Assembly: GCA_964016885.1 (NCBI GenBank)
Contig: OZ024740.1
Span: forward strand, 231,694,001-231,758,000
Direction: 5' to 3'
Length of the DNA stretch: 64,000 nucleotides
Source of the DNA: Eledone cirrhosa
Taxonomy: Eukaryota
The notes under the pieces: model-generated
What the model saw: the letters and a program-made list of their open reading frames with translations, nothing else
What the model was told of the DNA's origin: nothing
The model's database searches: none
Made by a program: the position numbers and the translations under genes
Part shown: piece by piece, positions 20,383-53,591 of the stretch
How the letters are laid out: each line of letters begins with the position of its first letter
Position numbering within the stretch: the stretch's first letter is position 1

Positions 20383-21378
20383 AATATATTTAGAAACACA
20401 CAGATACATGCGGACACACACATATATACATGAATGCATCCGCACCCAACTGTGAGTTAAGGGTGCCAACTTCACCGATGTTGCTCAATGAATGACCGGG
20501 ACAGACCAATTCAGTTGAACCAGACTGAACCAGTATCAGAGTTAAAAATACATTATGAAGAGAGAAGAAACATTTAGATATAATTAGTAATAAAATGTAT
20601 CATACCTAAACTGCTCCTAAATTCCTCGACTACGTAGTTTCGTGGCATAAACAAAAACAATATATCATAAAGATATAGAGTCCCTGCGAGGTCTGCCGAC
20701 TTATCAAGAGGATACCTCATTTTACTAGTCTCAAGAACGCGTCTACACGACGTGAGAAAGAATCCCAAAAGGCGGAGGGGGAGATAGTCACGCGATATAA
20801 CGGTCGAGAAACAGAGCTAAACCTCTTATAACCACGAAGAAAATACCACGGAGGCGGAGGGGGTATTCATATCGAGGCCGCAGAAGAGGTGGTGAAGAAG
20901 GCTAGAAGTATGAGTAATGGAAGCTTTCCAGTTGTCCCCACACTTCAAAGATTGCTCGACCAGAGGGAGTTATTAACAATATATTTAGAAACACACAGAT
21001 ACATGCGGACACACACATATATACATGAATGCATCCGCACTCTTCTGCGGCCTCGATATGAATACCCCCTCCGCCTCCGTGGTATTTTCTTCGTGGTTAT
21101 AAGAGGCTTAGCTCTGTTTCTCGACCGTTATATCGCGTGACTATCTCCCCCTCCGCCTTTTGGGATTCTTTCTCACGTCGTGTAGACGCGTTCTTGAGAC
21201 TAGTAAAATGAGGTATCCTCTTGATAAGTCGGCAGACCTCGCAGGGACTCTATATCTTTATGATATATTGTTTTTGTTTATGCCACGAAACTACGTAGTC
21301 GAGGAATTTAGGAGCAGTTTAGGTATGATACATTTTATTACTAATTATATCTAAATGTTTCTTCTCTCTTCATAATGT
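20383..21378. repeat. Palindromic element, family G (~335-bp arms) with a 60-bp direct duplication
   Basis: 20550-20887 is inverted at 21040-21378, giving identical 64-aa ORF-track entries. 20385-20444 is repeated at 20980-21039. Confidence 0.93.
21216..21305 (+). ncRNA. Type I HHR, family G, U3-A8 core; mirror at 20623-20712 (-)
   Basis: tcctc TTGATAA gtcggca...tgccac GAAA ctacgtag TC gagga. Confidence 0.85.
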
Positions 21379-21679
21379 ATATATATATATATATATATAT
21401 ATATATATATATATATATATATATATATATATATATATAGGTAACCGGCCTAGAATAGAAAAAAACTTTCAAGCGATAAAATCTGTGTAAACTTCCAAAA
21501 TGCTTTTTCAACCCCAGAATATTTCCTTATATTTCTACTTTTGTGGAAACTTGCAACAAATTTACACACACACACACACACACACACACACACACACACA
21601 CACACACACACACACACACACACACACACACACACACACACACATATATATATATATATATATATATATATATATATAT

Positions 21680-22105
21680 GTATAAGCAGTGAGTTATTTC
21701 ATTTGTTGATTATTCAACAAATTTAGTTTATAACAGATTAGAAGCACTCAACAGTATTCTTCTTAAGTATAATATCAATCATATTAATAAATGGAAGCTA
21801 TTTTTATAAAACCATATTTATTTTATTATATATATTTCAAGGGTACCAATATTTCGGTACGCTCTCATTAGATAAAATACAAAAGTTGGTTTACAGATAG
21901 TGACATATTCAAAACTAGAACTTGATGTTCTATTCAAATAGAACTCACAACATCAAGTTCTAGTTTTGAATATGTCACTATCTGTAAACCAACTTTTGTA
22001 TTTTATCTGATTAGGGCGTACCAAGATTTTGGTATCCTTGTAATATATATAATAAAATAAATTTGGTTTTATAAAAATAGCTTCCATTTATTAATATTAT
22101 TGATA
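21680..22105. repeat. Palindromic mini-element, family H, with degenerate HHR halves
   Basis: 21780-21930 is inverted at 21948-22105. Cores CTAATGA..GAAA (-) and CTGATTA (+). Related hairpin at 54657-54900. Confidence 0.8.
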
Positions 22106-22955
22106 TATATATATATATATATATATATATATATATATATATATATATATATATATATATATATATAATATATCAAGCTTTATATATATACCGATATACA
22201 CGTTTACCTTTCTCATATATATTTTCTCTCATTTTGCATCAATGTACCTTTTCTTTTGGTTTTGTTTTGATTCATGTGATAGAAGAAGATATTAACTAAT
22301 TGTTTACCTAATTACTACGTTTCATACCTTTTTATCTTCTTTTCTACTACACGGTACTATCGTTCAATATATTGATAATATATCTGAAGTATCCAATATT
22401 GACCCACTTTTCTAAACTTCTTACTTTAATTTAAACATCTCCCTATTTACTCTTTATATATATATATTTTTTTATTCACTTCAATCAAGTTTTTAACGTT
22501 TAATTTCTAATTTTCCATCTTAACTTCCACTGTGAAACCATAATATCTAGAAATATGTTTATATTCTCATAGCGGGGATGGTCAACCCCATTATCCAGAC
22601 ATAGATTAGGGGTAGTATTAAGGCCTATTGAAACTCATACTCTGCCACCACCACCAGATTTCGGTCAGCTGCCATTGGCAAGGCACATCGCAGTATACTT
22701 TAACAGTGTCATATTACCAGCCTGGATGGGGTGATCGTATGGTTAGAGGGTTAGAGGGGGGGGGGGGGTCCTAGGCTAGTTTTTAGTGAGTTTGGTGTAG
22801 TGGATAGTCAGCTTCCGTTTGTGTCTGTGAAGACTTGCAGAGGTGTATTGTTGACCACAGGGGAAAGGGTAGGCGATTCAAGAACACGCGCCTTGTCCGT
22901 TCCCTTGTCGCTTCTGTTTGGATTGCCTTGGGAACGTAACCTTATTATATTAGAA

Positions 22956-23030
22956 GCTGTCTGATGATGTCACGGCACTGGGTACACGGAATCGTGTGGC
23001 CACCGTCGTCATTGAAATATGTATCACAGC
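22956..23030 (+). ncRNA. Type I HHR, family I
   Basis: gctgt CTGATGA [branched stem II] GAAA tatgta TC acagc, followed by AATAAA at 23037. Confidence 0.88.
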
Positions 23031-23269
23031 ATTACCAATAAATAACTTTAACATCTGAATCTACTTCGCATTTTCTCATTCTCTGTATGTATTTATATAT
23101 ATATATATATATATTGGGCTTATATTAAAATATAACCTAATGTTTGTTGAGTGAGATGGTTACCAGTCAGAGATTAGCTTTAAACTATCTCTGTTATTGC
23201 ATTATATATATATATATATATATATATATATATATATATATATATATATATATATATATATATATATAA

Positions 23270-24070
23270 TAAAGTATATATCCCTACACGCAAAAAGCGT
23301 CCAGGGACACATGTATTGTCCAACCATATGCCAATGTGGTTCAATGGGAGGTTAATAAATTCACGAGCCAGAACATATATAATCAAAGTTTAGCAAATAA
23401 GAAAAAGTTTCAAAATAAATTTTAAAAAATTCACTGTACTCACTATGGTTACCTTTACCGAATCGGTTTCGAGTCTCAAAAATAAATGGACAGTCCTTGC
23501 GGCCTTCCATTGAAAAGATAAACTCTCGTCAGAAGGTTCTTTTCACTCGGAGAATATAAAATTCCCGAGTTCAAATTACGAACTGGCGCTATTCAAAATT
23601 GTTCCCGAGATGAGAATGAATGATGTGGAAGCAATTCTGTCCAGTGCCGTGTGTAAAGATAGAAGCAGAGGCAGGGAGGTCAGTCTACTACCACTATAAA
23701 TAGCAGCAGTCAGAACGACCAAATTTGGTCGAGATAAAATTTGGTCGTTCTGACTGCTGCTATTTATAGTGGTAGTAGACTGACCTCCCTGCCTCTGTTT
23801 CTATCTTTACACACGGCACTGGACAGAATTGTTTCCACATCATTCATTCTCATCTCGGGAAAAATGTTGAATAGCGCCAGTTCGTAATTTGAACTCGGGA
23901 ATTTTATATTCTCCGAGTGAAAAGAACCTTCTGACGAGAGTTTATCTTTTCAATGGAAGGCCGCAAGGACTGTCCATTTATTTTTGAGACTCGAAACCGA
24001 TTAGTGAATAAAGTGAATTTTTTTAAATTTATTTTGAAACTTTTTCTTATTTGTTAAACCTTGATTATGT
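23270..24070. repeat. Palindromic element, family D subfamily (~340-bp arms); HHR 23451-23537 (-) intact, 23926-24002 (+) with cleavage site deleted
   Basis: Centre gaccaaattt-ggtcgagata-aaatttggtc. The minus strand reads acctt CTGACGA gagtt...gactc GAAA ccgattcgg TA aaggt. Confidence 0.92.
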
Positions 24071-24261
24071 CCCTATGGATCTCCAATCTTTTGTGAAGTG
24101 AAACCGATCGGTAAAAGCAATTGGAATAGGTAAATATTTAAATTATATTTTTTAATTTATTTAAAAAAATTGTTTGACTCTTGCTTGTTCTGCTTATCTC
24201 AATATATATATATATATATATATATATATATATATATATATACATACACACACATATATAT

Positions 24262-51879: not shown

Positions 51880-52120
51880 TCATCATCATCATCATCACTG
51901 TTTTACATCCATTTTTCACACTATCATGGGTTAGACGAGTTGTCTTATTTTGGGTAATGCTAGGTCAGGTGTACATGCCTTGCTCATACAGAACTGATTT
52001 AGGCTTGGTTTCTACAGCTGGATGCCCTTTCTAACGCCAAACTCATTTACAGTGAGTACTGGGTGCTTTAGTCGTGACGCTTACACAACCACTTTACAGT
52101 GTGAGCTGAGTGCATTTTGT
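51880..52120 (-). mobile_element. SINE or LINE-tail fragment ending in (GAT)n
   Basis: (atc)n...catgggttagacg...ggatgccctttctaacgccaa. Related to 55222-55390. Confidence 0.5.
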
Positions 52121-52154
52121 CCAAAGAATTCTAGGAATATTATAAGTTATAGAA

Positions 52155-52348
52155 GGGCGGTGGATTGGCAGTATCGGTAGAGGGTCGGGCGCCATGCTTT
52201 GAAGCATAGAGTTACCTCCCTTTATGATCTGAGTTCAAATCCCGCCGAGTTTAACTTTGCCTTTCATCCTTACGGGGTCAATAAAATAAAGTACCAGTAA
52301 TGCACTGGGATAATTGCTGGCCTGGTGCCAAAAGTAGAAACAATTATA
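52155..52348 (+). mobile_element. Meta-like SINE, full length
   Basis: Same family as 17021. Confidence 0.88.
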
Positions 52349-53225
52349 TGTTATAGACAGGATTATAGTAAACAGGGAGGTTTAACATTGTCACCGTGTC
52401 ACTAACTTGGACTTTGTTTTCCGTTTTCCCAATTCACACAAAGCCCTTTGGTATATACACGCCACTACCTGTTGTTGGCTAGCTTTCTATGCTCCTATGC
52501 AAGGAAACAGCTATGCCTCATCTGTTATGTATCAAAACGTTTGAATGTTGGAGTAGCAGGATGTATTTTACAAGTATCTACATGCGTTACAATTGGACAA
52601 TATATAGATCTGATGCGTTAGAGTAAAATATCGATTGCACTTTCCTGTTGTATAATAATGGATTAGTTATTATTTACAATTGATTGGTCATATTTCCATG
52701 GATTTTCGATAAAGCACACACACTCACCCAAACACAGAATCATGTTTGATAAACAGTGATATATCTAACCCCCCTCTCTCTCTCCCTTTCACTTTCCTTC
52801 CCCACTCTCTCTCTCTCTATATATATATTTATAAATACATAATACATATATATATATTGCTCGTTTCACCTATTTTACTTGTCCCAATAACTTTATTTGT
52901 TATTGCTCGCGCCAACTAGAGGTATATGAGTTTTAAAGCGATGAAATACCAATGAAAGTTGGAAGATCACGGATGAAGGACTAATTTTATTCATATGTAA
53001 CCCATGTGCAACCATGCAGCGCTCCATTTTTCTCTTATATATATATATATATATATATATATTAGAATTGGTGCTGTGAAATAGCGATATATATATGAAT
53101 GTATATATAGTGTATTTTGCAATATATTGTATGATTAATTAAAAGCATTTCGAAGAACTTACGCTATTGTTTTAGAGTAGTGACAGTCTCACTTACTTTA
53201 AAATGTCAGCAAACAAGGGAGATAA

Positions 53226-53270
53226 AGCTGACAGAGCTATGTTTCGTACGGATTGGTACTTATCAAAACC
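53226..53270 (-). ncRNA. Type I HHR, family M, U3-A8 core
   Basis: ggtt TTGATAA gtac-caatcc-gtac GAAA catagctctg TC agct. Confidence 0.8.
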
Positions 53271-53546
53271 AAGTACTCCACCTGTTTGCTGAAAATCATG
53301 AATGTTTGATTCTTATAGAATTTCTAGTAATAATCAGGAACTGATTATACAGAGCGGCTGCCGGTGAAGCAGAAATTGAAAATTAGAATTGGCGGTCTTA
53401 AATAGCTATATATATATGAATGTATATATAGTGTATTTTGCAATACACTGTATGCGTAATTAAAATAATTTCGAAAACCTTACGCTATTGTTTTAGAGTA
53501 GTGACAGTCTCATTTACTTTAAATTTTCAGCAAACAGGGGAGATAA

Positions 53547-53591
53547 AGCTGACAGAGCTCTGTTTCGTACTGATTGGTACTTATCAAAGCT
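53547..53591 (-). ncRNA. Type I HHR, family M, U3-A8 core
   Basis: agct TTGATAA gtac-caatca-gtac GAAA cagagctctg TC agct. Confidence 0.88.

What the first reader, a model, noticed from the sequence alone, without database searches (positions are those of the whole stretch)
20623..53591. Covarying U3-A8 catalytic core fixed in several unrelated HHR families
Seen: TTGATAA replaces CTGANGA in both family G arms (20701-, 21221+) and both family M units (53260-, 53581-). TTGAAAA occurs in family C (11342), and possibly TTGATAA at 3479. Known: positions 3 and 8 form a Watson-Crick pair in the active hammerhead, so U3-A8 is compensatory. Inference: the double change argues for selection on catalysis, and canonical-motif searches would miss these.
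Basis: partly seen in the sequence, partly recalled or inferred. Interest (0 to 1): 0.75.

Follow-up and report, generated by a model that had tools for sequence, protein, structure and literature searches.

The report
Swapped-core hammerheads in Penelope-type repeats
Several jumping-repeat families of this animal genome carry a hammerhead RNA motif, predicted to cut itself, in which the core C-G pair is replaced by U-A, a swap already published for such elements; the one oddity is a young, protein-coding Penelope-type element whose motif also has C at the normally fixed position A13, with cutting untested.

Summary
The four U3-A8 cores (20707-, 21221+, 53266-, 53587-) are complete type I hammerheads, but they are two insertions, so two lineages: a 595-nt repeat (6,090 cores genome-wide) and a 321-nt repeat. 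Positions 3 and 8 covary between families, not within them. In 1.4 Mb of evenly sampled genome, 95 hits were 70 C-G, 21 U-A and 4 other; reversed controls gave 6 hits, none C-G or U-A. The 321-nt family nests among C3-G8 relatives, and a single U3-A8 origin is rejected (AU p=0.007). Natural U3-A8 is published (Perreault 2011; Cervera 2014, about 1,300 copies in Schistosoma PLEs), and this scan had noted a 320-nt U3-A8 family in this genome before. Site 3479 is not a hammerhead. Family C (11342) is the terminal repeat of a Neptune-type Penelope element with intact copies. It has U3-A8 plus C13 in place of A13, fixed in thousands of copies and unchanged between subfamilies: a relic or an undescribed tolerated core. 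No cleavage or RNA evidence was obtained. Verdict: real and well supported, mostly known.

The parts
20383..21378 (.). Family G insertion: one full 595-nt unit plus a part on the minus strand, joined to a 5'-truncated inverted copy, between two (TA)n tracts
20623..20712 (-). Family G type I hammerhead: U3 20707, A8 20702, long loop II, helix III palindrome of 10 nt, predicted cut after C17 at 20628
21216..21305 (+). Family G hammerhead, inverted copy: U3 21221, A8 21226, C17 21300
53061..53825 (-). Family M array, 2.4 copies of a 321-nt non-coding unit (non-LTR retrozyme type), next to (TA)n
53226..53270 (-). Family M hammerhead, unit 1: U3 53266, A8 53261, C17 53230; carries private changes in stem I and helix III
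53547..53591 (-). Family M hammerhead, unit 2: U3 53587, A8 53582, C17 53551; extended helix I with internal loop, folding z -4.4
7548..11487 (-).
   Evidence: intact copies
8835..11037 (-). Broken RT + GIY-YIG reading frame of that element
11339..11374 (+). Family C hammerhead-like motif: U3 11342, A8 11347, C13 11363 in place of A13, 3-bp stem I, A17 11371
7661..7696 (-). Family C motif, second copy, in the sense of the element's transcript
3479..3485 (+). TTGATAA heptamer, rejected: no GAAA box
13126..13199 (+). Canonical C3-G8 hammerhead used as comparator; others have position 3 at 12194+, 13045-, 23532-, 42558+, 58275-, 58691- and 61231-

Best explanation
Families G and M are non-coding tandem repeats (595 and 321 nt) whose type I hammerheads have U3-A8 in place of C3-G8, likely self-cleave as dimers, and are likely copied by Penelope-like element (PLE) enzymes; the swap is a known compensatory variant that arose at least twice in this genome. 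Shown: the motifs, the copy numbers, the Watson-Crick pair kept at 3-8 across families, and M's nesting among C3-G8 relatives. Also shown is the insertion anatomy: a fixed 3' end, 5' truncation or inversion, more-than-unit tandems and (TA)n targets. Inferred: tandem or read-through transcripts pair two palindromic helices III, cleave after C17 and release unit-length RNA, which may be circularised and is then reverse-transcribed by a PLE RT/GIY-YIG protein. A master copy with a mismatched 3-8 pair would not found a family. The likely route is two transitions through a U3-G8 wobble, which would explain why no G3-C8 or A3-U8 family was found. Family C is the terminal repeat of an autonomous PLE with the same swap plus C13; it is probably a weak or non-cleaving derivative.
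For: Even sample of 140 x 10 kb, descriptor free at positions 3 and 8: 70 C-G, 21 U-A and 4 other of 95 hits; reversed control 6 hits, none C-G or U-A. All loci held (1.98 Mb, enriched for the query families): 25 C-G clusters, 7 U-A clusters, 10 single mismatched copies, no G3-C8 or A3-U8. Family G: 6,090 cores, 99 of the first 100 U3-A8. M superfamily: 1,575 matches, 699 without A8; the first 100 were 61 U-A, 32 C-G and 7 mismatched (hand count). M flanks are homologous to two C3-G8 families (z 26 and 22). In a tree with 3 and 8 masked, M is nested among C3-G8 families and one U3-A8 clade is rejected, p-AU 0.007. In 17 aligned rows the 3-8 pair is 10 C-G and 7 U-A with 0 broken, and all 4 stem II pairs change on both sides. 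Predicted helix III duplexes are -12.9 (G) and -20.1 (M) kcal/mol against hairpins of 0 and -1.8. A diverged G contig in run X5 has its 12 listed substitutions, of 13 counted, all in loop II. Insertions: 18 of 26 distinct G insertions have an inverted part and all touch (TA)n; 19 of 29 M loci are inverted and 23 of 29 lie at (TA)n. Literature: PMC3088659 reports natural U3-A8 and cites in vitro activity. PMC4209133 reports U3-A8 in Schistosoma PLEs.
Against: No cleavage was measured here. In one type III hammerhead screened exhaustively, only the G-C swap rescued this pair and the other double mutants had low activity (PMC9901934, passages), so U3-A8 activity depends on context. Copies within a family are not independent, and the number of independent switches proven is only two. 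The descriptor demands stems and GAAA, so decayed copies are under-counted. No autonomous partner was identified for G or M. Family C amplifies with a core change expected to impair cleavage, and HHR mutants did not block insertion of an Anolis PLE in vitro. The shuffle control ignores relatedness.
Confidence: 0.78

Rival explanations
1. The fold is selected, but for something other than cleavage, such as recognition by the PLE protein or template positioning. U3-A8 then preserves a shape, not catalysis. This is most plausible for family C.
For: Family C has C13 in 45 of 46 copies picked without regard to the motif, including all intact-ORF elements examined, yet 0 of 31 motif columns carry subfamily differences against 24 of 193 outside, p=0.02. 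HHR cleavage was dispensable for PLE insertion in vitro (PMC11167929). PLE minimal HHRs cleave poorly in vitro.
Against: G, M and the other six U-A or related clusters keep every catalytic position, and G and M keep a UC site. The 3-8 pair is a feature of the catalytically active conformation (PMC3884650, passages).
Confidence: 0.13
2. Dead or drifting ribozymes: C-to-T and G-to-A pressure in an AT-rich genome produced U3 and A8 independently in a few master copies, and amplification fixed them with no selection.
For: Both changes are transitions. Within families the state is simply inherited. Mismatched single copies exist.
Against: Seven U-A clusters and no multi-copy cluster with a single change. 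Neighbouring core positions, which face the same pressure, stay invariant while stems covary.
Confidence: 0.05
3. All U3-A8 families descend from one ancestral swap, so there is one event and no recurrence.
For: Family C and its GAAA-bearing sister share U3-A8 by descent (z 6.6-8.3). G and three small clusters have no identified relatives, so their origin is open.
Against: M's closest relatives are C3-G8 families. The AU test rejects joining M with the U-A copy of L082, p=0.007, though long branches are present.
Confidence: 0.04

Closest known systems
U3-A8 minimal hammerheads of Schistosoma mansoni Cercyon PLEs (Cervera and de la Pena 2014, PMC4209133; read parts 1-2 of 4 and keyword passages of supplementary file 2; file 1 not searchable)
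   Same: Same core covariation in PLE-linked type I motifs, about 1,300 copies. The supplement lists two S. mansoni families (UUGAUAA and UUGAAAA), one with an evident C3-G8 counterpart in S. japonicum.
   Different: Those are minimal motifs with an extra base after A9 and no helix III. Here helix III is a 6-12 nt palindrome, G and M are non-coding tandem units, and copy numbers are higher.
Natural U3-A8 core variants (Perreault et al. 2011, PMC3088659; keyword passages and part 3 of 8)
   Same: C3-G8 covaries to U3-A8 in several natural hammerheads; activity in vitro is cited to Przybilski and Hammann 2007 (not held, not read).
   Different: No repeat-family census. The passages read name no A13 substitution among tolerated variants and treat A13 as consensus; Figures S6 and S7 were not seen.
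Metazoan non-LTR retrozymes (Cervera and de la Pena 2020, PMC7229834, abstract and passages; Li et al. 2026 bioRxiv 10.64898/2026.07.22.740005, parts 1-2 of 5)
   Same: Non-coding tandem units with one type I hammerhead each, GC under 45%, proposed PLE origin. M (321 nt) fits the 170-400 nt range.
   Different: G is 595 nt, above that range but within the 51-972 bp of the preprint, and has a 59-nt stem-loop II. Both carry U3-A8. Circular RNA was not shown here.
Neptune-clade Penelope-like elements (Craig et al. 2021, PMC8557442, keyword passages)
   Same: [quoted passage not shown]
   Different: The family C motif has U3-A8 and C13. Clade placement rests on motifs, not on a tree with reference proteins (Nematis shares the linker).

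Membership tests
Type I hammerhead ribozyme (families G, M) | Core N3-UGAN-N8-A / GAAA / UH with a Watson-Crick 3-8 pair | tested here: met
Type I hammerhead ribozyme (families G, M) | Three helices, open helix I, with covariation | tested here: met
   helix III is stable mainly as an intermolecular duplex
Type I hammerhead ribozyme (families G, M) | Rfam hammerhead model above gathering score | tested here: not met
   No gathering-level hit in the window; M scores 19.3 bits to RF02275 against a cut-off of 52; G has no hammerhead hit. Canonical copies in the window are missed too.
Type I hammerhead ribozyme (families G, M) | Site-specific self-cleavage | not testable with these tools
   needs an in vitro assay
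Type I hammerhead ribozyme (family C) | Invariant G12-A13-A14 box | tested here: not met
   C13 in 99 of the first 100 of 3,233 matches; only 134 non-C13 matches genome-wide, the first 100 being T 51, A 33, G 16 by hand count
Non-LTR retrozyme (G, M) | Short non-coding tandem unit with one hammerhead per unit | tested here: met
   units of 591-597 and 321 nt; longest ATG frames 48 and 33 aa
Non-LTR retrozyme (G, M) | Linear and circular unit-length RNA in vivo | tested here: inconclusive
   Two runs of unrecorded type hold the G unit as a closed head-to-tail contig, which tandem DNA also gives
EN+ Penelope-like element (family C) | RT plus GIY-YIG ORF | tested here: met
   784-aa frame with PF00078 and PF01541 above cut-off; intact in 13 of 14 stretches fetched around listed intact hits, the other being a flank
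EN+ Penelope-like element (family C) | Pseudo-LTRs in tandem or inverted arrangement | tested here: met
EN+ Penelope-like element (family C) | Phylogenetic placement in the Neptune clade | not tested
   no reference PLE proteins were held; assigned from the linker motif only

The most novel reading that the evidence does not exclude
A currently amplifying Penelope-type element uses a working hammerhead core with both U3-A8 and C13: once position 8 is A, the normally invariant A13 is released or replaced, perhaps with help from the element's protein. More widely, U3-A8 has evolved up to seven times in this one genome and is tolerated mainly beside a G10.1-C11.1 pair (5 of 7 U-A clusters against 4 of 25 C-G clusters, p=0.01, post hoc), giving a natural map of epistasis inside the hammerhead active site.
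Probability: 0.15. Interest if true: 0.65.

Novelty: new member of a known kind. Interest (0 to 1): 0.32.

Why it matters
The swap itself is not news. The genome does offer natural sister pairs, such as M and its C3-G8 relatives, for testing how surrounding nucleotides permit the weaker pair. About a fifth of descriptor hits here (21 of 95) would be lost to a fixed CUGANGA search. Family C bears on an open question, whether PLE hammerheads need to cut at all: an element with intact, near-identical copies carries a core expected to be impaired, yet conserves it. Either result of a cleavage assay would be informative.

Tried and rejected
3479 as a hammerhead: rejected, no GAAA box in any of 25 loci. 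A C3-G8 subfamily inside the strict M pattern: none, 5 of 5 non-U3 copies keep A8. A fixed U3-G8 intermediate family: the candidate in L090 is a single copy genome-wide. An ancestral GAAA subfamily of C: not seen, position-13 variants follow a mutation spectrum. Two further U-A/C-G sister pairs (L226 with L245, L115 with L261) look alike in the motif, but flank-only homology is not significant (z about 2), so they are not counted. Association of U3-A8 with C17: not significant (4 of 7 against 6 of 25, p=0.17). A polymorphism-depletion test was not significant for M (p=0.85; loci chosen by similarity around the motif) and failed for G for lack of coverage. No autonomous partner of G or M was found among the loci held up to L176. 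RNA evidence: no RNA holder listed. Rfam matches were microsatellite and palindrome artefacts. Papers not held and not read: Lunse et al. 2017, Przybilski and Hammann 2007, Hammann et al. 2012, Martick and Scott 2006, Scott et al. 2013. Searches for an A13C natural variant found nothing relevant, but those unread papers and unseen supplements (Perreault S6/S7, Cervera file 1) may hold one. The even sample covers contigs C1-C4 only.
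Full report
Setting. The window lies on a 443-Mb contig of a 3.0-Gb genome and is dominated by (TA)n tracts and dispersed repeats. I take it to be an animal genome from these features and from its Penelope-like elements; no call names the organism.

Observation. The four cited TTGATAA sites are real and each sits in a full type I hammerhead descriptor. G has a 5-bp stem I, a 59-nt stem-loop II closed by G-C, GAAA, a 10-nt palindrome and C17. M has a 4-bp stem I with a long bulged extension, a 4-bp stem II with a 6-nt loop, a 12-nt palindrome and C17; the better unit folds with z -4.4. 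The two G arms belong to one 998-bp insertion and the two M units to one tandem array, so the window shows two lineages. Site 11342 and its twin at 7693 have U3-A8 but GCAA for GAAA. Site 3479 fails: none of 25 loci has a GAAA box there, and that family's hammerhead is a C3-G8 motif 238 nt downstream.

Within families the state is fixed by descent. G: 6,090 exact cores, with 99 U-A and 1 U-G among the first 100 listed. M, strict pattern: 278 matches, with 98 U-A, 1 C-A and 1 U-G among the first 100. The 5 copies genome-wide without U3 under a slightly wider pattern all keep A8.

Between families the pair covaries. I scanned 140 evenly spaced 10-kb stretches of C1-C4 with a descriptor free at 3 and 8. 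Of 95 hits, 70 were C-G, 21 U-A and 4 other; the reversed sequence gave 6 hits, none C-G or U-A. The hits form 15 C-G clusters, 5 U-A clusters and 4 mismatched singletons (the first 80 stretches gave 39, 17 and 6 under a looser descriptor). Over all 1.98 Mb held, which is enriched for the query families and was clustered within state, there were 25 C-G clusters, 7 U-A clusters, 10 single mismatched copies, and no G3-C8 or A3-U8. A pattern spanning the M superfamily gives 1,575 matches, 699 of them without A8. By hand count the first 100 are 61 U-A, 32 C-G and 7 mismatched; these copies are not independent events.

The swap recurred. With the ribozyme body excluded, M's flanks match two C3-G8 families (z 26 and 22) and no U-A family. 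The single U-A copy in L082 is nearest to C3-G8 families (z 7.5). G, M and C show no mutual homology (z at most 3.5). C is related to a U3-A8 family that keeps GAAA. A 23-row tree with positions 3 and 8 masked nests M inside C3-G8 families and rejects one U3-A8 clade (p-AU 0.007; at most six rows per cluster; long branches flagged). At least two switches are therefore shown, and up to seven lineages carry the state. In a 17-row alignment the 3-8 pair is never broken and all four stem II pairs change on both sides. A diverged G contig in run X5 has its 12 listed substitutions, of 13 counted, in loop II and none in the core.

What the elements are. G and M are non-coding (longest ATG frames 48 and 33 aa) and occur as tandems. 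Of 26 distinct G insertions, 18 contain an inverted part, all touch (TA)n, and the ends recur at two fixed points; of 29 M loci, 19 are inverted and 23 lie at (TA)n. This matches the tandem/inverted, microsatellite-targeted insertions described for PLEs (PMC8557442, passages) and the non-LTR retrozyme concept (PMC7229834, passages; bioRxiv 10.64898/2026.07.22.740005, parts 1-2). Helix III is predicted stable as an intermolecular duplex and weak or absent as a hairpin, which points to dimer cleavage. Cleavage, circularisation and the mobilising protein are inferred. Two runs of unrecorded type hold the G unit as a closed contig, which does not separate tandem DNA from circular RNA.

Family C. 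The repeats at 7548-7774 and 11261-11487 bracket a broken RT/GIY-YIG frame. Elsewhere many copies have an intact 784-aa frame with identical scores, with Pfam RVT_1 and GIY-YIG above cut-off and a CX4CXXC linker, hence Neptune-type by motif. Every motif found in these intact loci reads U3-A8 with C13, and the descriptor scan listed no GAAA-type motif belonging to the element. C13 is the master state: 99 of the first 100 of 3,233 matches. The 134 non-C13 matches are mostly T, then A, then G. Among 46 copies from 33 loci, leaving out the six loci picked by the motif pattern and the locus that repeats the window, subfamily-level differences fall in 0 of 31 motif columns against 24 of 193 outside (p=0.02). 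Private changes hit the motif as often as the flanks (1.9% against 1.4%). Contigs of three public runs show no variant at 3% or more at position 13. The conserved block is 61 nt, wider than the motif, so another function could explain it. A13 is treated as consensus core in PMC3088659; that its loss impairs cleavage is my recalled knowledge. One PLE hammerhead is protein-assisted and dispensable for insertion in vitro (PMC11167929, passages). I rate a non-cleaving or weak relic more likely than a new working core.

Comparison with what is known. Perreault et al. 2011 report natural U3-A8 covariation and cite its activity in vitro. Cervera and de la Pena 2014 report it in Schistosoma PLEs, built a descriptor for it and retrieved about 1,300 hits; their supplement lists two such families. 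Against general activity, a pairwise mutagenesis of one type III hammerhead found only the G-C swap rescuing (PMC9901934, passages). That G3-C8 is absent here while U3-A8 recurs suggests mutational access through transitions decides the outcome; this is inference. Earlier notes of this scan describe a 320-nt U3-A8 family in this genome and similar variants elsewhere; I saw them after my own analysis and they agree.

Verdict. Compensatory covariation and repeated origin are supported; selection on catalysis is likely but untested. The variant is published, so these are new members of a known kind. The C13 core of an amplifying PLE and the post hoc link to G10.1-C11.1 (5 of 7 against 4 of 25 clusters, p=0.01, clusters not fully independent) are the leads worth a bench test. 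Interest 0.32.

Noticed in passing
window 11001-11007 (-); L207:5356-8948: The family C element has an upstream 436-aa ORF1 that overlaps the RT frame. A U UUU UUA heptamer in the phase for a -1 ribosomal frameshift joins them, present in 13 of 13 junctions examined. No strong downstream stem was predicted. Frameshifted ORF1s are mentioned for some PLEs.
   Followed up: partly
window 2935-3971 (+), motif at 3717: A roughly 840-nt repeat family with a C3-G8 hammerhead that has a very long stem-loop II; the window copy is cut off inside helix III.
   Followed up: partly
window 12797-13275, 23282-24068, 42558, 58031-58762, 60958-61977: Several more C3-G8 hammerhead repeat families, often as inverted pairs. 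Several C3-G8 clusters close stem II with mismatches (U-U, C-A, A-A) at 10.1-11.1.
   Followed up: partly
window 22007 (+) and 60606 (+): Decayed copies of a common C3-G8 family with a changed GAAA box (and T8 at 22007).
   Followed up: no
window 24578-25675 (+) and about 40689-41087 (+): Remnants of other retroelements: a PLE-like RT stretch (25% identity to the family C protein) and a weak GIY-YIG match.
   Followed up: no
window 49897-51297 (-) and 38668-40170 (+): A 466-aa open frame resembling the C-terminal part of a restriction-endonuclease-type non-LTR element (my reading, no Pfam hit), and a broken LINE with a weak endonuclease match.
   Followed up: no
runs X4 and X6: Runs with other organism labels hold the family G unit as one closed contig of 620-621 nt, about 98% identical. 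The run type is not on record, so related species, tandem DNA or circular RNA cannot be told apart.
   Followed up: partly
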